Virus record (IMG/VR): IMGVR_UViG_3300028048_000045
Coordinates: 1 to 64,000 of that record
Length of the DNA stretch: 64,000 nt
Direction: 5' to 3' (one strand)
Origin: a virus
Lineage: Duplodnaviria; Caudoviricetes
Positions 24,362-63,656 of this stretch are shown here, in pieces (the first letter of the stretch is position 1; each line of letters opens with the position of its first letter). Position numbers and translations under genes: made by a program. The notes under the pieces were generated by a model. That model ran no database searches. It saw nothing but the letters and a program-made list of their open reading frames with translations, and had not been told where the DNA came from.

Positions 24362-24757
24362 TTAAGCGGCAAGAGTTTTGACACCGTCGATAATCTTACC
24401 AATTGCAGGTGCAGCTTTTGCAACTTTAACACCAATTGTCAAACCTTTGTTAAGATCCTGGAGCATCTTCTTACTTCCAGCAAAGTTAACTGTAACATTT
24501 GGACCTACTTTTGTTTTTGTTCCATCAGCATTTGTACGTTCACCATTTTCATGGTAATTCATTTTAACGGCACAAAGACCTGTTTCAGCGATTACTGTTT
24601 TAGCACCGCCATCATTGATCTTTTCCAATGCAAGATTTGTGATAACACCAGGAATAGCTTTGTCAAGCTTATCGATGTCCTCTGTTTTTAAACCTGTTTG
24701 ACTTGCTGCTACTGCAATCCAATCAGATCTTTTAATTGTAGCAATTTTATCAGCCAT
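24362..24757 (-). CDS. HU/IHF-like histone-like DNA-binding protein
   Basis: IKRSDWIAVAASQTGL...GLCAVK...ERTNADG...VTVNFAGSKKM fits the HU fold; start MADKI behind AAGGAGG. Confidence 0.65.
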   Translation of the reverse strand: MADKIATIKRSDWIAVAASQTGLKTEDIDKLDKAIPGVITNLALEKINDGGAKTVIAETGLCAVKMNYHENGERTNADGTKTKVGPNVTVNFAGSKKMLQDLNKGLTIGVKVAKAAPAIGKIIDGVKTLAA

Positions 24758-25028
24758 GTTAGTGGCCTCCTTATAAATATATTTATAAGAGTATATAAAA
24801 CTCCTATTCACGATTAAAATATATAAGTGAAAAATAAATTAGCGGTATATGAAGACATATACTTGTAGGAAAACTATTTAAAAATTTTCCTACAAGTTAT
24901 ACTGAGAACCATTTCATTCACCCTAATTGTATTTACTCATTATATTGTGATACTGAATTTAAAAAGTTATTTTCTATTTATTTTAAAATATATTTATATA
25001 ATATTTGACTGAGGTTAAAGTAAGAATT

Positions 25029-34844: not shown

Positions 34845-35702
34845 TTAATAAGGAAGTTCTATATATTTTTTCAAGAAATCGTCGAATGAAAAATTTTCAA
34901 TAGGTTCATATTCATTACATTTGCATCTATTTAACAAAGGTTTTAATGTATATTCTCTTTTTAATTCATCTGGATAAGATTCATCTTTTGGATATTTTGC
35001 ACCTTTAGCATATCCATGCTTGTCAATCCATTTATTAAAACGTTTTTCTCTATTAAAAAACGAAACATAATCTTTAGCTTTAGCCTCTTCATCTTCAAAT
35101 TCTTTAAAATATTTTTTGTGTAAATCACACATTTGACGATGCGTTAATCTAAAAGATTCGATGTCTGCATCAGGATATCTTTCTTTAAAAGTATCGACAC
35201 TCATATCAGCAACACCCATAATATTCATACTTGGATCACCAACATAGACATTTATCTTATCACAATAGTGTTTACATTTAAAACATTTGTGTTTAGCAAA
35301 ACGTTTTTTATCATTTTCATAAATTTCTTGTTTAAGTTCATCTTCATAGTATTTCTTAAGTTTTTCTGGAAGATAAAATAATCTAAAAATTGGATAACCT
35401 CTTAGAACTTGAACTTCTATATAAGAAAATACTTTATCTCTAAATTCTTCAGAATCCAGAGATTCATTTTCATTATAAAGTAAGTTATCCAGTTCCATAT
35501 TCATGGACCAAATACTATGACCCATTATTTCTTCATGAACCAAACCCCAATTTACTGAAGCACTTTCACCAAATGTTTCTAGACCGTATATTTCAAGAAA
35601 TTTTATAAACCATTTAAATAAAAATATTTTTTTATTATCCGATAATCTTTCTTTTTCATCATAATCCATAGTCAAACTCCATATTATATCATATATTGAC
35701 AT
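34845..35702 (-). CDS. Hypothetical protein with Cys cluster
   Basis: 285 aa; CFKCKHYC and RCKC. Confidence 0.7.
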   Translation of the reverse strand: MSIYDIIWSLTMDYDEKERLSDNKKIFLFKWFIKFLEIYGLETFGESASVNWGLVHEEIMGHSIWSMNMELDNLLYNENESLDSEEFRDKVFSYIEVQVLRGYPIFRLFYLPEKLKKYYEDELKQEIYENDKKRFAKHKCFKCKHYCDKINVYVGDPSMNIMGVADMSVDTFKERYPDADIESFRLTHRQMCDLHKKYFKEFEDEEAKAKDYVSFFNREKRFNKWIDKHGYAKGAKYPKDESYPDELKREYTLKPLLNRCKCNEYEPIENFSFDDFLKKYIELPY

Positions 35703-35795
35703 TAAGATGTATTCAAGTTTGTAATTTTAAAAATTCTTTTGAATATATAATTATAGGACGAAGATAAAGAATTTTAAAGTTTGGAGTTAAACAAT

Positions 35796-37721
35796 ATGAA
35801 GATGGGAACATTAGGATCGTACGATAGTACAACTGATTATTCTGAATTTAAGAGACGAAAACCTAATAAAAAATATAGATCACATTTAGTTTCTGAGCGT
35901 TTCTTGCTCATGATTATAAAAGTTTTAGCAAGTGATATTACAGTTAACAGACGTTCTCTTGCTAATATAAAACGCTTCTTAACTATCATAGATAGGGATT
36001 ATTATTGTAGAAGCGAAAATATAGAAGCTATGCTTCTAGTTTGTGATTTGTTAGTTTCAATTAGAACTAAAAATCCTCATGGAGTTTCATTAGAATCGTT
36101 AACATATAAAGTTGAAAATCTTTTAGTTGAACCTTATGATAAAGTAAGAGATCAATTAATTATACCTCAGATTAATGTTGCAAAAGATGAATTGCCTGAA
36201 GATGATCTTGAATATATTACAAATAGCCTAGATCAAAATCTTAAGTTTTCATACATTCTTGATGTAAAAGATAATCTTATTGAATTAACAAACGATATCG
36301 AAACATCATCTTATACCGATTTTCCAAATTTATTACATCAGTATCGTGATTTAGTTACTGGTATTATGAACTTTTTCAGAAGTACAGATTCAAGTTCAAT
36401 GACTAATGAAATTGTTCATACTGGAGATCCAACATTCTTAGATATTCTTTATGATACTTATGAAGCTATTCGTAATCCAGCATCTGCTTTACAAACAGGT
36501 TGGCAGGCATTGAACTCTGCACTTGGACCTCGTGGTGGATTCCAGAATAAAAACTTATATTGTCTTCATGCTAATACTAACTCATTTAAATCTGCAATGC
36601 TTCTTCATATTTCTCGTATGATTAAGGAATATAATGCTTCGAGAGTTATTGATGAATTTAAACGTACTGGAAAGATTCCAACAGTTCTTCACATTAGTAT
36701 GGAGAATGATAATGATGAAGATAATGAACGTTTGTATAAGACTGTAGTTAAGAAAGATCTTGGAAAATGTACATCTCGAGAAGAACTTAATCAGTCTTGG
36801 GAACACAATTTCGGAAATTCTAATAGTGAAGAAGAAAATCCTATTGATATTTCATTCTTGCATGTTGATGCTAGATCTCTTAGTGTTGATGAAATTGATG
36901 TTATTATTGAAAATCTTGAAGAAGAAGGATATCGTGTAATTGCTTGTGTCGTTGATTATTTAGGTTTAATTAAACCTAGAATGGAAGATATGGGTAAAGA
37001 TAACCGTCTTCAGTTAAAGAATATTGCAGATGATTTACTTTCACTTGCAAAGAATAGAGATATTCCAGTTATTACAGCTCATCAGATTAACCGTTCTGGT
37101 GGTGCAGTTCTTACAAACTTAAAGAATCAAGGTGGAGTTAATGCTATTTCACAAATGACTAATGAATTCATTGGTGAATCTTATGGTATTGAACAGGCTG
37201 TTTCATGGTCAGCATTTATCGATATTGAAATTCATGGTGAAGATCGTTGGTTGATGTTTAAGCGAAACAAATCTCGTTATAAGAATAAGTTTGGCACAGA
37301 AACATTTGTAATGAAGATCCGTGATGGTATTATCATTGATGATGATATCTATCTTTCAACTCCATTGTCACTTCCTAAGATTCCTGATGGAATTGGAACT
37401 GATGATGCTAATCAGAATCAAGGTTCTAGAGGTATTATTGATATTAGAGATAATAAACATAAAACACCTCCAAAAGATCATCTTATTAAAGTTAAATCTT
37501 CAACTGAAGAAAGAGAAGACTTCCTTAATTCTAAAGAAAAGGTTCCTATCGAATATATCGATTGGAATAATTGGATTTATTATCTTGATACTGGTGATTA
37601 CGAAACAGAAGATTTCTATGTTTGGTCTAACTCTGAAATGTCATATTATGATAGATCGTTTGTTATTGGAGAAACAGAATATGTTAGCTGCGATTTTAAC
37701 GAAGAAGTAGCTTACGCTTAA
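35796..37721 (+). CDS. dnaB: Replicative DnaB-like helicase (phiKZ-type)
   Basis: TGWQALN, ANTNSFKS (Walker A variant), ISMEN, VVDYLGLI, ITAHQINR, KSR; adjacent to the capsid gene. Confidence 0.85.
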   Translation: MKMGTLGSYDSTTDYSEFKRRKPNKKYRSHLVSERFLLMIIKVLASDITVNRRSLANIKRFLTIIDRDYYCRSENIEAMLLVCDLLVSIRTKNPHGVSLESLTYKVENLLVEPYDKVRDQLIIPQINVAKDELPEDDLEYITNSLDQNLKFSYILDVKDNLIELTNDIETSSYTDFPNLLHQYRDLVTGIMNFFRSTDSSSMTNEIVHTGDPTFLDILYDTYEAIRNPASALQTGWQALNSALGPRGGFQNKNLYCLHANTNSFKSAMLLHISRMIKEYNASRVIDEFKRTGKIPTVLHISMENDNDEDNERLYKTVVKKDLGKCTSREELNQSWEHNFGNSNSEEENPIDISFLHVDARSLSVDEIDVIIENLEEEGYRVIACVVDYLGLIKPRMEDMGKDNRLQLKNIADDLLSLAKNRDIPVITAHQINRSGGAVLTNLKNQGGVNAISQMTNEFIGESYGIEQAVSWSAFIDIEIHGEDRWLMFKRNKSRYKNKFGTETFVMKIRDGIIIDDDIYLSTPLSLPKIPDGIGTDDANQNQGSRGIIDIRDNKHKTPPKDHLIKVKSSTEEREDFLNSKEKVPIEYIDWNNWIYYLDTGDYETEDFYVWSNSEMSYYDRSFVIGETEYVSCDFNEEVAYA

Positions 37722-37734
37722 TTTAACAGGTTAT

Positions 37735-37900
37735 AAATAAATTAAGCTCAAATTCTTTATCTTCAAATGGAATCGTGTAGTTTTCATAACTCTCCTTAGG
37801 ATTTAGTATACATCGTCGATGGTATTAGATCTTATGAGTTTAATTTGTTTTGATACCTTTAAATAAAACAGGTGCTGGGTAAAACCAGCACCTTCCTTTT
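37735..37900 (+). ncRNA. Candidate structured small RNA with antisense loop
   Basis: 12-bp outer stem (37739-37750/37835-37846), 17-bp inner stem with 4 G-U pairs (37797-37834), loop antisense to SD+AUG, terminator at 37871-37900. Confidence 0.5.
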
Positions 37901-37915
37901 ACTTTTTTCTTTATT

Positions 37916-37928
37916 ACATTATAATATA
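37916..37928 (+). promoter_or_regulatory. Late-type promoter of capsid operon
   Basis: ACAttataATATA. Confidence 0.7.
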
Positions 37929-37957
37929 ACTTAAATTATACCTTTAGGGCGACTTTT

Positions 37958-38647
37958 ATGATAAATCATTCTAAAATTCTTAGCTTTTCATCAAATTTTG
38001 GTTCAAAAGCTAATAGCACAGAGTCCCTCGAGGACAAAAAAATAGAACAAAATGATATAATTCACCAGGAATATGAACAATCTCTTGAAGAAGAAACATT
38101 TGAAGATGCTGCTAATGAAGAATCTTCTGGCGGCGATTCAGGTGATGATGGTTTAGGAGATATGGAAGACGATATGGATTCGCTTGATTCTCAGATGGAC
38201 GGTATGGACGATGGGGATTTTGGTGGAGATGATATGGATTCTTCCGATGGTGGATCAGATGGGTCGGATGGAGCCACTGGTGTAGACGATCTAGAAAAAA
38301 ATAGAGGATCTTCATTAAATCCATTTACCCAGATTAATCAAAAAAACTATCTTATTGGTGAGTTGAATGAACTGTCTGACTCCATTCAACATACGATTAC
38401 AGAGTATAATAACATGTACGCTGACTGGTCTGAATTAACTCAGCTACGTGAACTCAAATCTATGTTAGATGAAGAACGTAATTCGTTCATTATGCAACAG
38501 AATCCGGAAAATTTAATTAAGTTGAGGTTGTATATGAAACAATACGAGACTATAGTTAAAAAACTCAGCAGTATGATAAGTGATAAAGCTAAACGTGATA
38601 GTAAGTTATCTCAGAATAACAAATCTACTCCGGTTAGTAAAAATTAA
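37958..38647 (+). CDS. Acidic head-assembly/scaffold-like protein
   Basis: D/G/M-rich region, S-x-E motifs; lies between helicase and capsid genes. Confidence 0.55.
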   Translation: MINHSKILSFSSNFGSKANSTESLEDKKIEQNDIIHQEYEQSLEEETFEDAANEESSGGDSGDDGLGDMEDDMDSLDSQMDGMDDGDFGGDDMDSSDGGSDGSDGATGVDDLEKNRGSSLNPFTQINQKNYLIGELNELSDSIQHTITEYNNMYADWSELTQLRELKSMLDEERNSFIMQQNPENLIKLRLYMKQYETIVKKLSSMISDKAKRDSKLSQNNKSTPVSKN

Positions 38648-38676
38648 ATTCCTTTATTCTTTTAAGGAGAAATAAA

Positions 38677-40641
38677 ATGGCTAATACATTTACTCAATTA
38701 TCTCGTGAAGATATTGCCAAAGTATATGAATCTCACAAGAAAGATCACGCTCAGTCTTACTACAAATCTCTCGAAAAGTATCAGCATGAACTTCAGAAGT
38801 ATGTAGGAGCACAGTCAGTGTTCGGAAAAGAAGGCTGGGGAAGAATCGTTGATGATGATAATCTCTTCAATAAAGCAAAGAGCTTGTCAGCTGAAATGTT
38901 CGCTGGTGACAAAGTACTCCAGGGTCGTTTCAACCGTCTTATGGATAACACTCGTGAAACAGTAGCTGCTGTTGATAAGGGTGGATTCGGTATGGAAGGT
39001 TGGGGTGGCGGTACAGCTGTATACGCATCTTCACAGGGTGGTTTTGCACTTGGTACAACACCATTCATTATTGGTGGTTGGCTTGCTTCTGCTCGTTCAG
39101 AAGAAATTTTCCAGCATATTGACAATAAGAACAATATGCGTCTTGAATTTGAATACAATATCGACTATGCACAGATCGGTGATCAGAAGTTCTTCTTCCC
39201 ACAGTGTTTCCGTGCTGGCGAAATCACAGGTTTCAACAAACTTCCACAGGTTGACTGGGTAACCCCTAATACAAACGCTGGAACATATACTGCTCCTGAA
39301 ACATGGTGTGGTGAAGATATGTTCATCCTTCTCAACGCTGCTGACGGTTCTGATACTGCAGGTGTTAAGGGTAACCTTCTCACTGTAGCTGGTAAGAACA
39401 AGATGAAGTATGGTATCGAACCAAACTATCAGCTTACAGCAATTAAGTTCCAGAATGGTTCTGCTGAAGGAGCTGAAGTTGTAACACGTCGTACAGAACT
39501 CCACTATTCTATTATGGTTGGACAGCCAAACGAACGCGATATGAAAGCTACATACACATTGAAAGATGTTGCTGGCTTCGACGAACCAATCGTTCTCCAG
39601 ATTTACATGCGTGTAAATATCGATAATGGTGATTTCATCCTCTTCGTAAAAGCTCCTACAGCTGACGCTCTTAAACTTATTAAGGGATTCAAGTTTGATG
39701 GTAAGATTTCTAACGAAGCTAACGAAATTACAGACATCCCAACAATGGGTGTTGATAAGTTCCAGTTCATTCGTGAATGTGAATACAGAAACTACTCAAA
39801 AGTTTCTCTCAACGAATATATGGCTGATAACTTCCGCATCGGTGGTAACAACAACATTTCTTATGCTGCTTATGCTACTGATAAGATGCTTCAGTACACA
39901 ATCGCTAACCGCGAACTCGAAGCTGAAGACTTCCTCATCAAGCAGGTTCTTGATGACGATGTAGATATCGATACTTTCGAACTTACAAGAAAGATGGGTG
40001 GATTCATCCAGAACAATCTTTCATTCGGAATTTCTAAGTTCACACCTGGTCTTGGATTGCAGGATTACAAGTTCGGTCTTAAGAACTACCTTAACAAGGT
40101 ACTCGCTATGGCTGATACTGATCTTAACATTCCTACATCAGTTAAACGTGAATGGATCCTTATGGGATACGACGCTGTTGTAACTGAATTCCCTGAAGTT
40201 AAGTTTGAAAACGCTGCTGTTAACCTCCAGGAACAGGCTGAAGGTTCTGCTGTTAATGAACACTATGGATTCGCTGTTGATACTAAGTGTGGATACATCG
40301 ATAGCCTTGGTCGTTCAGTACGTATTATCGGTAACGCTGATAAACGTTGGCAGGAACGTGGTCCTTCTGTATACGGTGCTCTCCGCACATACTCAATGGA
40401 ATATCCATTCCTCGTATACTATCAACATGCTATCCGTATGTTTACAGCTATCGATCCTGATATGCCTAACCGCACAGCTATCATTATTGGTGGTCGTGAA
40501 TTCCGTGGACACTTCGCTGCTGCAGCTATTAAGCTCACACTCGAAGGAGTTCTCGATAACGCAGGTATGCCAGTAAATAACTTCGATCAGCAGATGGACA
40601 ACTCTAAAGTTGGCTATGAATTCAAAACTATTAATGGCTAA
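38677..40641 (+). CDS. Major capsid protein (precursor)
   Basis: 654 aa; strongest codon bias in window; helicase-x-capsid synteny of phiKZ-like phages; N-terminal S/G-x-E sites; strong terminator at 40680-40710. Confidence 0.75.
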   Translation: MANTFTQLSREDIAKVYESHKKDHAQSYYKSLEKYQHELQKYVGAQSVFGKEGWGRIVDDDNLFNKAKSLSAEMFAGDKVLQGRFNRLMDNTRETVAAVDKGGFGMEGWGGGTAVYASSQGGFALGTTPFIIGGWLASARSEEIFQHIDNKNNMRLEFEYNIDYAQIGDQKFFFPQCFRAGEITGFNKLPQVDWVTPNTNAGTYTAPETWCGEDMFILLNAADGSDTAGVKGNLLTVAGKNKMKYGIEPNYQLTAIKFQNGSAEGAEVVTRRTELHYSIMVGQPNERDMKATYTLKDVAGFDEPIVLQIYMRVNIDNGDFILFVKAPTADALKLIKGFKFDGKISNEANEITDIPTMGVDKFQFIRECEYRNYSKVSLNEYMADNFRIGGNNNISYAAYATDKMLQYTIANRELEAEDFLIKQVLDDDVDIDTFELTRKMGGFIQNNLSFGISKFTPGLGLQDYKFGLKNYLNKVLAMADTDLNIPTSVKREWILMGYDAVVTEFPEVKFENAAVNLQEQAEGSAVNEHYGFAVDTKCGYIDSLGRSVRIIGNADKRWQERGPSVYGALRTYSMEYPFLVYYQHAIRMFTAIDPDMPNRTAIIIGGREFRGHFAAAAIKLTLEGVLDNAGMPVNNFDQQMDNSKVGYEFKTING

Positions 40642-46158: not shown

Positions 46159-46168
46159 TATATATTAT
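46159..46168 (+). promoter_or_regulatory. Early-type promoter
   Basis: TATATATTAT directly after the terminator at 46126-46155. Confidence 0.65.
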
Positions 46169-46224
46169 AATAATGTAAAGAATTTGTATGAGTTCTTGAT
46201 ATTATAATTTTAAGGAGAAATACT

Positions 46225-46539
46225 ATGAGTATTTTGGAAACAATTTCAAATGAACGTGAAAAAACACGTAAAGCATATTTAGACGCTGTTACATCCGGTC
46301 AGATGAGTCCAGAACTTTGTGCTCAATTATTACAAAATTCAGATACAGAATTTTATAAAATTAGTGAAAAAATTTGTCATGAAGATATGGAAAAATATTA
46401 CAGTTTGGTAAATAGATGTTTGGATGTTTGTTCACGGCCTAAAACATTTATGGAATCACTAGGTTCAGTTGCCGATTCTTTTGTAAGAGGTGCAGAACTC
46501 TTACAACAGCAGCCCGATTCAACTCAGCCAACAAATTAA
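46225..46539 (+). CDS. Hypothetical early protein
   Basis: 104 aa; AAGGAG RBS. Confidence 0.7.
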   Translation: MSILETISNEREKTRKAYLDAVTSGQMSPELCAQLLQNSDTEFYKISEKICHEDMEKYYSLVNRCLDVCSRPKTFMESLGSVADSFVRGAELLQQQPDSTQPTN

Positions 46540-63391: not shown

Positions 63392-63415
63392 ATATTTTTG
63401 ATTGAACATATAAAT

Positions 63416-63609
63416 ATACAAATTCACAAACCTGCATCCTGACGTCTTTTTGGTCTTTCAATTGTCATTTTTTTCATTTAAATCCTCCTATAAATTTTTT
63501 TGAAATTACCCATTGGTAAGAGTTTTCGTGAATTTTCTCTTATCGATGGCAAAAAGCTTTTAGTCTTTTTGATAAAGCGGGGCAGTTAATTCTGCCCCGT
63601 ATAATTTTT
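63416..63609 (+). ncRNA. Candidate late-promoter-driven antisense small RNA
   Basis: Promoter ACAtataaATATA (63406-63418); no plus-strand ORF; anti-SD/anti-AUG segment; G-U stem 63510-63549; terminator 63577-63609. Confidence 0.55.
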
Positions 63610-63656
63610 GTTCTGATGACAAAATGATATACTATAAATAAAAAGAGGTCATATTT

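What the first reader, a model, noticed from the sequence alone, without database searches (positions are those of the whole stretch)
37735..37900. Second sRNA-like element with the same layout, between helicase and capsid operon
Seen: a 12-bp outer stem (37739-37750/37835-37846) encloses a 46-nt open loop (37751-37796) and a 17-bp stem with four G-U pairs (37797-37834). A tgtttt/aaaaca mini-hairpin and a terminator follow. The loop is the reverse complement of AGGAGAGTT-ATG AAA ACT ACA CGA TTC CAT TTG AAG ATA AAG AAT. The five G-U pairs are all valid only on the plus strand, arguing for selection on RNA structure. The order (anti-start + anti-SD, G-U hairpin, small hairpin, terminator) matches 63416-63609 without sequence similarity. 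Inference: a family of scaffolded antisense/guide RNAs with interchangeable targeting segments, which could be an undescribed phage translational-silencing system.
Basis: partly seen in the sequence, partly recalled or inferred. Interest (0 to 1): 0.78.

Follow-up and report, generated by a model that had tools for sequence, protein, structure and literature searches.

The report
Helicase mRNA tail pairs with its leader
The folded RNA after this giant phage's DNA-helicase gene is real, but it is not one of a family of programmable silencing RNAs. Its conserved exposed segment is the mirror image of the helicase message's own leader, so it most likely controls that single gene by long-range RNA pairing.

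Summary
The structure is real: the plus strand folds far better than shuffles (z -6.75) and better than the minus strand (z -2.28). The window is the first 64 kb of a 276-kb, 29% GC jumbo phage with AR9-type promoters.

Its ATG is lost in the closest relatives, and the segment and the G-U hairpin are absent from more distant ones.

Seven lineages conserve three things:
- Two nested stems (P0, P1). P1 has an unrelated sequence in every lineage.
- A 14-17-nt loop segment directly after P1 (window 37750-37764).
- A terminator.

That loop segment is the exact reverse complement of 35760-35774 in the helicase 5'UTR, 21 nt before the ATG. The edges of this pairing change together in each lineage, sometimes through U.G wobbles. 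It is the only such 5'/3' match among 90 genes tested.

Best reading: a scaffolded helicase 3'UTR that pairs with its own leader, in cis or after processing in trans, like icaR or hbs. The effect on translation or stability is inferred.

No shared family with 63416-63609 was found, and no host target. An unfollowed first-reader note (e1-5656851) had flagged the same 15-nt repeat.

The parts
35698..35709 (+). Probable late (nvRNAP-type) promoter of the helicase gene, GACA-TTAAGA-TG, with an inferred start at G35709. It is palindromic with a minus-strand TACA-TCTTAA-TG for the divergent gene.
   Evidence: Sequence. The same position reads AACA-N6-TG in L006 and L017. The AR9 late consensus is AACA-(6N)-T[A/G], last base = start (PMC5312081). 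The start site is inferred, not measured.
35760..35774 (+). M: the 5'UTR target segment GAAGATAAAGAATTT. Its 3' end lies 21 nt before the ATG and 8 nt before the GGAG.
   Evidence: Exact 15-nt reverse complement of 37750-37764. It is the best target of the element among 247 gene starts. It is conserved, with co-varying edges, in all relatives that carry the element.
35796..37721 (+). DnaB-like replicative helicase gene (641 aa; SD GGAG at 35783-35786).
   Evidence: Pfam PF20307 divDNAB 2.8e-34 and PF03796. PHROG DnaB-like helicase. The 641-aa form is the one on record.
37722..37731 (+). P0 5' strand (TTTAA-C-AGGT). It begins at the first base after the helicase stop codon.
   Evidence: Pairs with 37855-37863 in the MFE. 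The same helix is predicted in L002, L005, L006, L016, L017 and L023. 91% of cells are paired.
37735..37750 (+).
   Evidence: Seven lineages carry P1 helices of 10-16 bp with unrelated sequences. Six of them were tested by shuffling: p 0.0005-0.017 by duplex energy; by helix length five are at 0.0005-0.0075 and L002 at 0.25. The seventh stem (L023) was read and a wobble variant of the L006-clade stem. Compensatory pairs.
37750..37764 (+). M': the conserved single-stranded antisense segment AAATTCTTTATCTTC, directly after P1.
   Evidence: Unpaired in the MFE. 14-17 nt complementary to the phage's own helicase 5'UTR in every lineage. M:M' forms in the MFE dimer in 8 of 10 variants.
37765..37797 (+). 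Lineage-specific rest of the loop. It holds the reverse complement of ATG (37785-37787) and of AAGGAGAG (37790-37797). The minus-strand 18-codon frame is 37731-37787.
   Evidence: The ATG is lost in L001, L003 and L004. The segment is absent in other lineages. A second contact with the helicase SD is only marginal.
37797..37834 (+). Inner 17-bp hairpin with four G.U pairs, specific to the window clade.
   Evidence: In L001 and L003 three G.U pairs become A.U and the bulge base varies. It is replaced by other hairpins in L006 and L017 and missing in L007.
37835..37850 (+). P1 3' strand.
37855..37863 (+). P0 3' strand (ACCT-TTAAA).
37870..37909 (+). Intrinsic terminator of the helicase transcript: 9-bp GC-rich stem 37870-37893, then a U-rich tract.
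   Evidence: The stem sequence differs but the hairpin is kept in every lineage.
37915..37926 (+). Conserved promoter of the downstream operon, TACA-TTATAA-TA. It is not part of the element but marks its right boundary.
   Evidence: The block TTATTACA(T/A)TATAATATA is invariant in six aligned relatives. It resembles the late consensus.

Best explanation
The element is the structured 3' untranslated region of the DnaB-like helicase mRNA. Two nested stems (P0, P1) hold open a large loop. The first 15 nt of that loop (M', 37750-37764) base-pair with a segment of the same gene's 5'UTR (M, 35760-35774), which ends 8 nt upstream of the Shine-Dalgarno sequence.

The pairing could occur within one mRNA, joining its two ends. 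It could also occur between molecules, if the roughly 180-nt 3' piece survives processing. The most likely effect is control of helicase output: either lower translation, by occluding the AU-rich standby region next to the SD, or altered decay of the leader. These are the outcomes shown for S. aureus icaR and B. subtilis hbs.

What is shown: the structure, its strand, its conservation with covariation, and the co-evolving complementarity.

What is inferred: that both segments lie on one transcript (start at G35709 by promoter consensus), that the duplex forms in vivo, and what it does.

For: 1. Strand-specific stability: z -6.75 for plus and -2.28 for minus. Without the terminator: -5.26 and +0.17.

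2. Seven lineages share the same layout: P0, P1, M' directly after P1, a variable insert, then a terminator. Helicase identity across them is 85-100%. Each was folded on its own, and the P1 sequences are unrelated. In the six lineages tested by shuffling, duplex-energy p values are 0.0005-0.017.

3. On an alignment without the window clade, 90.5% of cells are paired, against 39-60% with slid partners. Three pairs carry compensatory changes, and 1 of 500 shuffles reaches the score. Several P1 pairs are G.U or U.G, valid only on the plus strand (L017, L029).

4. M' is complementary to the phage's own helicase 5'UTR in every variant for which the 5'UTR is available:
- 15 nt in window, L001 and L003
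- 14 nt in L002 and L019
- 16 nt in L020
- 16 nt in L006 and L024
- 14 plus 2 through a U.G wobble in L016 and L023
- 16-17 nt in L017
- 14 nt in L007

5. The two bases flanking the invariant core ATAAAGAAT read AG, CG, AA or TG. They are always the same on both sides.

6. In this genome the helicase is the only one of 90 genes with 12 nt or more of 5'/3' complementarity. Mismatched gene pairs reach 15 nt at a frequency of 0.0007.

7. Among 247 gene starts, the helicase leader is the element's best target.

8. RNAcofold places M:M' in the MFE dimer for the window (ddG -6.0) and for 7 of 9 other variants.

9. The 5'UTR alone is not stably folded (z +0.89), so M should be accessible.

10. A late-type promoter lies upstream of M: GACA-N6-TG here and AACA-N6-TG in L006 and L017. 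This matches the AR9 consensus. The element itself has no conserved promoter, and P0 starts at the stop codon.

11. There is precedent for 14-bp 5'/3'-UTR pairing with regulatory effect: hbs (PMC5737220) and icaR (PMC3868564).
Against: - There is no RNA evidence.
- Folding energies of the scaffold alone are not better than shuffles in some lineages: L002 z +0.1, L016 -0.3, L006 -1.7. Support there is comparative, not thermodynamic.
- The duplex is AU-rich and lies upstream of the SD rather than on it, so an effect on translation is not assured.
- The 12-nt core of M/M' never varies. That also fits recognition of the sequence itself by a protein.
- The lineages are close relatives, so the independent compensatory events number about three or four.
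- Relatives at 56-61% helicase identity (L008, L009) have no such element.
- A covariance model built without the window clade finds the window element only at 20.5 bits, E about 0.6-1.5, level with chance hits.
Confidence: 0.68

Rival explanations
1. DNA-level inverted repeat. The two 15-bp copies flanking the helicase gene would be sites for a DNA-binding protein (a regulator of the divergent promoter region, or a replication or recombination factor), or sites kept alike by recombination. On this view the RNA pairing is incidental.
For: - The 12-nt core ATAAAGAATTTT is invariant in all lineages, as expected for a protein site.
- The 5' copy sits inside a divergent promoter region, next to a third, looser copy (AAAAATTCTTTTG) on the other side of an early-like promoter.
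Against: - The variable flanks are matched between the two copies in each lineage, and some matches are U.G wobbles that are mismatches in DNA terms (L016, L023).
- The 3' copy is always displayed in a loop closed by covarying RNA stems with plus-strand-only G.U pairs.
- The third copy does not co-vary.
- All relatives keep the same gene orientation.
- There is no GC-skew extreme at the locus.
- 15 bp is short for homologous gene conversion.
Confidence: 0.1
2. A free or processed trans-acting small RNA with a wider regulon. The roughly 180-nt 3' piece would accumulate and use M' to pair with the helicase leader and also with the 5' ends of early phage messages, which begin with a related sequence (G-UAAAGAAUUUG). 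The C/U-rich stretch of the loop would mask Shine-Dalgarno sites. This is.
For: - M' is 11 nt complementary to the leaders of genes at 46225, 118072 and 249765.
- CUCC-type or matching C-rich stretches occur in the loops of 4 of 7 lineages. L007, whose SD is GGGG, has CCCACCC.
- L005 has a perfect AACA-N6-TA motif at the right place.
- 3'UTR-derived sRNAs are common in bacteria (general knowledge).
Against: - The AACA motif is mutated in L001, L002, L006, L016, L017, L023 and L024, and absent in L007.
- P0 would lose its 5' strand if transcription started there.
- The co-varying flanks follow the helicase leader, not the early leaders.
- The early-leader segment is already locked in a local hairpin.
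- The second contact with SD regions is only marginal: Fisher p about 0.05, and about 0.05 combining the per-lineage p values by hand.
- The anti-SD/anti-start part is not conserved.
- No other trans target was found in the phage.
Confidence: 0.14
3. A minus-strand mini-gene. It would encode 18 aa (MKTTRFHLKIKNLSLIYL) with a canonical SD, possibly a type I toxin-antitoxin-like pair with the plus-strand RNA, or be the decayed start of a lost gene.
For: TAAGGAGA is the phage's commonest SD word. It sits 4 nt before an ATG-AAA start with an open 18-codon frame. Antisense SD-ATG motifs are about threefold more frequent than in shuffles.
Against: - The ATG is destroyed in L001 (deletion) and in L003, L004 and L015 (ATACGA).
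- The frame is absent in all other lineages.
- The peptide is not hydrophobic.
- No recognisable early or late promoter lies on the minus strand between terminator and SD (reading against the consensus).
- The minus strand folds no better than shuffles.
- A remnant origin of this filler cannot be excluded, but no source gene was found.
Confidence: 0.04
4. An ordinary 3'-end stabiliser. Here the structure would be a structured 3'UTR and terminator that protects the message from 3' exonucleases, and the 15-nt complementarity to the leader would be a coincidence of AT-rich sequence.
For: - AT-rich genomes yield long chance matches. One mismatched gene pair reached 17 nt.
- The scaffolds fold only weakly in some lineages.
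Against: The match is found again in every lineage with matched flank changes. It is the only such case among 90 genes. It always occupies the same exposed position directly after P1.
Confidence: 0.04

Closest known systems
B. subtilis hbs mRNA 5'/3'-UTR interaction (Braun, Durand and Condon 2017, PMC5737220)
   Same: A 14-bp long-range pairing between the 5'UTR and the 3'UTR of one bacterial-type mRNA. Here the pairing is 14-17 bp, it lies in the leader upstream of the SD, and it precedes an intrinsic terminator.
   Different: - In hbs the pairing masks an RNase Y site, which was shown experimentally. Here no cleavage site or nuclease is known.
- There is no sequence homology.
- This case is a phage helicase gene.
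- The 3' partner is displayed in a loop closed by two nested covarying stems.
S. aureus icaR mRNA 5'-3'UTR pairing (Ruiz de los Mozos et al. 2013, PMC3868564)
   Same: A long 3'UTR of the same mRNA carries an antisense motif that pairs with the leader, controls translation and creates a double-stranded RNase III substrate.
   Different: In icaR the UCCCCUG motif pairs with the SD itself. Here the conserved helix ends 8 nt upstream of the SD. Anti-SD stretches are present only in some lineages and are statistically marginal.
Phage lambda sib retroregulation of int
   Same: A phage gene is controlled post-transcriptionally by a structured element located 3' of its coding region.
   Different: sib acts as an RNase III-cleaved hairpin that opens the message to 3'-5' decay. 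It does not pair with the 5'UTR.
Candidate late anti-RBS sRNA at 63406-63609 of the same phage (scan note e1-5656845)
   Same: It also lies on the plus strand after a plus-strand gene. It has a C/U-rich anti-SD stretch, hairpins and a terminator.
   Different: - It has a perfect late promoter of its own, AACA-TATAAA-TA.
- It has no enclosing P0/P1.
- It is not complementary to its neighbour's leader and matches only generic SDs.
- It is not hit by model R1.

Membership tests
Long-range 5'/3'-UTR pairing elements of bacterial-type mRNAs (hbs / icaR kind) | [quoted passage not shown] | tested here: met
   15 nt exact. It is the only such case among 90 genes, and the null frequency of 15 nt or more is 0.0007. 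It is the top target among 247 gene starts.
Long-range 5'/3'-UTR pairing elements of bacterial-type mRNAs (hbs / icaR kind) | Complementarity maintained in evolution (covariation between the two segments) | tested here: met
   Flank states AG, CG, AA and TG are matched on both sides, with U.G wobbles in L016, L023 and L029. These amount to only about 3-4 independent events.
Long-range 5'/3'-UTR pairing elements of bacterial-type mRNAs (hbs / icaR kind) | Both segments lie on one transcript | not testable with these tools
   Inferred from the late-type promoter at 35698-35709 and the terminator at 37870-37909. RNA reads were unavailable.
Long-range 5'/3'-UTR pairing elements of bacterial-type mRNAs (hbs / icaR kind) | The pairing changes translation or decay (RNase III, Y or J; toeprint) | not testable with these tools
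   Needs reporter and nuclease assays.
icaR-type anti-SD 3'UTR specifically | The 3'UTR motif pairs with the Shine-Dalgarno sequence itself | tested here: inconclusive
   The conserved helix ends 8 nt before GGAG. A second contact with the SD or TIR is significant only in the L002 clade (10 nt, p 0.002). Combining the per-lineage p values by hand gives about 0.05, and the Fisher test run gives 0.048.
Free-standing trans-acting sRNA gene | Own conserved promoter upstream of the RNA | tested here: not met
   AACA-N6-T[A/G] is perfect only in L005. It is off-spacing in the window and mutated or absent in 8 other variants (consensus). P0 starts at the stop codon.
   Model R1 has no hit at 63392-63625 and no other credible copy in the 276-kb genome. 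Locus 2 has no enclosing stems. In this element the scaffold varies and the loop segment is fixed.
Any Rfam family | Match at the gathering score | tested here: not met
   No matches in the whole 64-kb window.
Type I toxin-antitoxin (small toxic peptide plus antisense RNA) | A conserved small ORF, usually hydrophobic, on the opposite strand | tested here: not met
   The start codon is lost in L001, L003 and L004, the ORF is absent in other lineages, and the peptide is not hydrophobic.

The most novel reading that the evidence does not exclude
The helicase 3'UTR is cut free as a stable RNA of roughly 180 nt and works as a toehold riboregulator. M' would seize the 5'-proximal UAAAGAAUUU motif, which the helicase leader shares with a set of early phage messages. 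Strand exchange would then open P1, and the variable insert would add lineage-specific contacts such as anti-SD stretches. That would give the phage an RNA-based switch that couples replication-gene expression to early-gene shut-off. A sequence-specific factor might also recognise the invariant AAAGAAUU/AAUUCUUU duplex in both the local early-leader hairpins and the long-range helix.
Probability: 0.13. Interest if true: 0.75.

Novelty: new variant of a known kind. Interest (0 to 1): 0.5.

Why it matters
Regulatory pairing between the two ends of a bacterial-type mRNA is known from very few cases, such as icaR and hbs. As far as I know it has not been described for a gene of a double-stranded DNA phage.

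This case rests on comparative evidence. The two partner segments co-evolve in seven lineages of uncultured gut or rumen jumbo phages, and the antisense segment is presented by a scaffold whose stems covary.

It gives a concrete, testable example of post-transcriptional control of a replication gene in an AR9-like phage, which transcribes with its own polymerases. It also shows that the more eye-catching anti-SD/anti-start feature was a lineage-specific filler.

If the 3' piece also acts in trans on early leaders, it would be a new kind of phage temporal switch.

Tried and rejected
- Rfam scan of the whole window: no family.
- Megablast of 35700-39700 against 50,697 phage records: no match.
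- Search for a trans target of the anti-SD/anti-start segment. Only the cis site appears in the window and the genome. There were 0 hits in IMG/VR. In 185,579 prokaryote genomes there were 2 hits, both the start of a secreted-protein gene in one soil Ignavibacteriaceae MAG; I judged them chance, since about 1-2 are expected for an AT-rich 20-mer.
- tRNA scan: none.
- RNAduplex cross-matrix of leaders against elements: uninformative in AU-rich sequence.
- Covariance model R1: the window element is the top hit in the window, but at a chance-level score, with no second copy. Nothing can be built on it.
- Second contact between the loop or the P1 5' strand and the helicase SD: marginal.
- Own late promoter for the element: not conserved.
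- Minus-strand promoter for the mini-ORF: none recognised.
- Replication-origin idea: no GC-skew extreme at the locus.
- Pattern scans of IMG/VR and JGI metagenomes with the conserved promoter block returned only near-identical relatives.
- Two of the last contig look-ups returned no DNA.
- Complex prediction, structure prediction and protein searches beyond the helicase were not relevant.

Full report
**Setting.** The window is the first 64 kb of a single 276,071-bp contig with 29% GC. It has no close relative among deposited phages.
- Its promoters match those of the Bacillus jumbo phage AR9. About 31-39 sites read TTTATATATTAT-(6N)-G, like the AR9 early consensus AAATATATATTAT-(6N)-G.
- A second class reads [A/G]ACA-(6N)-T[A/G], like the AR9 late consensus AACA-(6N)-T[A/G], whose last base is the start site (PMC5312081).
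- The finding lies between a DnaB-like helicase gene, 35796-37721 (PF20307 2.8e-34), and an operon of unknown proteins that starts at 37958.

- Region 37722-37905 folds on the plus strand to -54.4 kcal/mol, z -6.75, with none of 200 shuffles as good. The minus strand gives z -2.28. Without the terminator the contrast is -5.26 against +0.17.
- The outer stem is 16 bp (37735-37750 with 37835-37850).
- The loop does contain the reverse complement of TAAGGAGAGTT-ATG and an 18-codon frame.
- One detail changes. The tgtttt/aaaaca mini-hairpin gives way to an outermost helix, P0 (37722-37731 with 37855-37863). P0 starts at the first base after the stop codon and recurs in relatives.

**What relatives show.** A protein search found 185 helicase relatives, from 100% down to 56% identity. 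I fetched the flanks of representatives. The window's closest relatives (L001, L003, L004, L015) keep the whole element, but the minus-strand ATG is destroyed in all of them. The mini-ORF and the 'anti-start' are therefore not under selection. Within the inner hairpin, three G.U pairs become A.U and the bulged base varies.

Lineages at 85-93% identity replace the anti-SD/anti-start segment and the G-U hairpin with unrelated sequence, or lack them: L002/L019/L020, L005, L006/L016/L024/L029, L017, L023 and L007. All seven lineages keep the following:
- P0.
- A second helix, P1, whose sequence differs completely in each lineage. The window has AAATAAATTAAGCTCA/TGAGTTTAATTTGTTT. L005 has GAAAATCGGATT/AATCCGATTTTT. 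L006 has GGGAATTGAGA/TCTCAATTTCT. L017 has AGGGTTAGGTC/GACTTAATTCT, with three G.U pairs. L023 has AAAGATTGAAA/TTTCAATCTTT. L007 has ATGTAGATTTT/AAAATCTACAT.
- The motif A(2-6)TTCTTTAT directly after the 5' strand of P1.
- A terminator whose stem also differs between lineages.

Each lineage folds into this layout on its own. In the six lineages tested, shuffling the 5' segment gives duplex-energy p values of 0.0005-0.017 per lineage for P1. On an alignment that leaves out the window clade, 90.5% of cells pair, against 39-60% when the partners are slid. Three pairs carry compensatory changes. Relatives at 56-61% identity (L008, L009) have only a terminator or a different gene order.

**The target.** The conserved loop motif is the reverse complement of a segment of the helicase's own leader.
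- In the window, AAATTCTTTATCTTC (37750-37764) matches GAAGATAAAGAATTT (35760-35774). That segment ends 21 nt before the ATG and 8 nt before GGAG.
- The match is found again in every lineage for which the leader is available, at 14-17 nt.
- The bases flanking the invariant core change together. The leader and the element both read ..GAAG|core in the window clade, CG|core in L002, L020 and L017, GAAA|core in L006, L024 and L023, and TG|core in L007.
- L017 has six U facing six A at the other edge.
- L016, L023 and L029 extend the helix through U.G wobbles that exist only in plus-strand RNA.
- Within this genome the helicase is the only one of 90 genes whose 5' and 3' intergenic regions share 12 nt or more of complementarity. 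Mismatched gene pairs reach 15 nt at a frequency of 0.0007.
- Of 247 gene starts, the helicase leader is the element's best target.
- RNAcofold puts the M:M' helix in the MFE dimer for the window (ddG -6.0) and for 7 of 9 other variants. The leader alone is not stably folded (z +0.89).

**Transcript context (inferred).**
- A late-type promoter lies at 35698-35709: GACA-TTAAGA-TG here, and AACA-N6-TG in L006 and L017. It would start the message at G35709, 51 nt before M.
- The same bases read TACA-TCTTAA-TG on the other strand for the divergent gene, so M is on the helicase message only.
- An early-like but imperfect promoter (TATATAATTAT) sits just before M.
- The element has no conserved promoter of its own. 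AACA-N6-TA is perfect only in L005, and P0 would lose its 5' strand if transcription began there.
- The simplest reading is therefore one message of about 2.2 kb whose two ends can pair, or whose 3' piece acts on other copies after processing.

**Mechanism.** I favour control of helicase output by this long-range helix. It could hinder 30S loading on the AU-rich region beside the SD, or change nuclease access to the leader. These are the outcomes shown for icaR (3'UTR pairs with the SD, blocks initiation and creates an RNase III substrate) and hbs (a 14-bp 5'/3'-UTR helix that modulates RNase Y cleavage). This step is inference.

I tested a second contact with the SD in two ways:
- The rest of the loop against the region from SD to ATG. 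This is significant only in the L002 clade (AAUUAUAACU pairing with AGUUAUAAUU, p 0.002). CUCC-type stretches occur in 4 of 7 lineages. L007, whose SD is GGGG, carries CCCACCC.
- The P1 5' strand against the SD, which would be colinear with M:M'. Here L001 has 9 bp and L017 has p 0.01.

Combined p values are about 0.05, so I leave this open.

**Rivals.**
- A DNA-level repeat (protein site or recombination site) fits the invariant 12-nt core. It does not fit the matched variable flanks, the wobbles, or the RNA scaffold around the 3' copy. The third, looser copy upstream does not co-vary, and there is no GC-skew feature at the locus.
- A wider trans-acting role is possible. Eight early promoters are followed, from +2, by a hairpin (G)UAAAGAAUU-YGYAUG-AAUUCU, and M' is 11 nt complementary to three of these leaders. 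However, the co-varying flanks follow the helicase leader, and those early-leader segments are already paired locally. M looks like the 5' arm of such a leader hairpin whose 3' arm has moved to the 3'UTR.
- The mini-ORF and type I toxin idea fails on conservation.
- Chance fails on recurrence across lineages.

Locus 63416-63609 has its own perfect late promoter (AACA-TATAAA-TA) and no enclosing stems. It is complementary only to generic SD sequences and is not found by the covariance model, which finds no other credible copy in the genome either. The two loci share an order of parts, not a scaffold. No host or phage gene start complementary to the anti-SD/anti-start segment was found.

**Limits.**
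- The lineages are close, so independent compensatory events are few.
- The scaffold's folding energy is unremarkable in several lineages.
- The model score is at chance level.
- The host is unknown.

**Verdict.** The element is best described as a scaffolded 3'UTR that pairs with the leader of its own helicase message. It is a new variant of the rare 5'/3'-UTR pairing kind and, as far as I know, the first such case in a DNA phage. An unfollowed first-reader note in this scan (e1-5656851) had flagged the same 15-nt repeat. I found it independently and tested it here.

Noticed in passing
window 46159-46210 (+); genome 249696 (+); genome 112726, 118425, 201590, 213846, 219043, 219665 (-): Eight early-type promoters (TATATATTAT-6N-G) are followed, from +2 of the predicted transcript, by a conserved leader hairpin (G)(U/A)A(A/U)AGAAUU-YGYAUG-A(A/G)UUCU. 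The helicase leader motif M resembles its 5' arm. This may be a 5'-end stabiliser or a recognition site.
   Followed up: partly
window 35697-35713: A palindromic pair of overlapping late-type promoters: GACA-TTAAGA-TG on the plus strand for the helicase, and TACA-TCTTAA-TG on the minus strand for the divergent 274-aa gene (34845-35669). It is conserved in relatives.
   Followed up: partly
whole genome G000: The promoter vocabulary matches phage AR9. There are about 31-39 early sites (TTTATATATTAT-6N-G), mostly right after terminators, plus late sites ([A/G]ACA-6N-T[A/G], including the (T)CGACATTTnAATATA form). This supports an AR9-like two-polymerase programme.
   Followed up: partly
window 37912-37930: The block TTATTACA(T/A)TATAATATA before the operon at 37958 is invariant in six aligned relatives, even where the upstream element differs completely. 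It is probably a late promoter with T instead of A at the first position.
   Followed up: no
window 24692-25028; genome 149323-149573, 192717-192871, 242091-242290: These are other co-directional intergenic regions with an SD-ATG motif on the strand opposite to transcription (6 regions observed, about 1.9 expected). Some may be missed small genes or further antisense features.
   Followed up: no
Their structural role is unverified.
   Followed up: no
L009:3497-3652: In the 56%-identity relative, the helicase is followed by an early-type promoter and a 51-aa gene, then a converging gene. The gene order downstream of the helicase is not conserved at that distance.
   Followed up: no
L021:6253-6272 and L022:4304-4323: Two copies of a secreted-protein gene start (MKTTFIILF...) in a soil Ignavibacteriaceae MAG share the 20-mer GGAGAGTTATGAAAACTACA with the reverse complement of the loop. 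I judged this chance similarity.
   Followed up: yes
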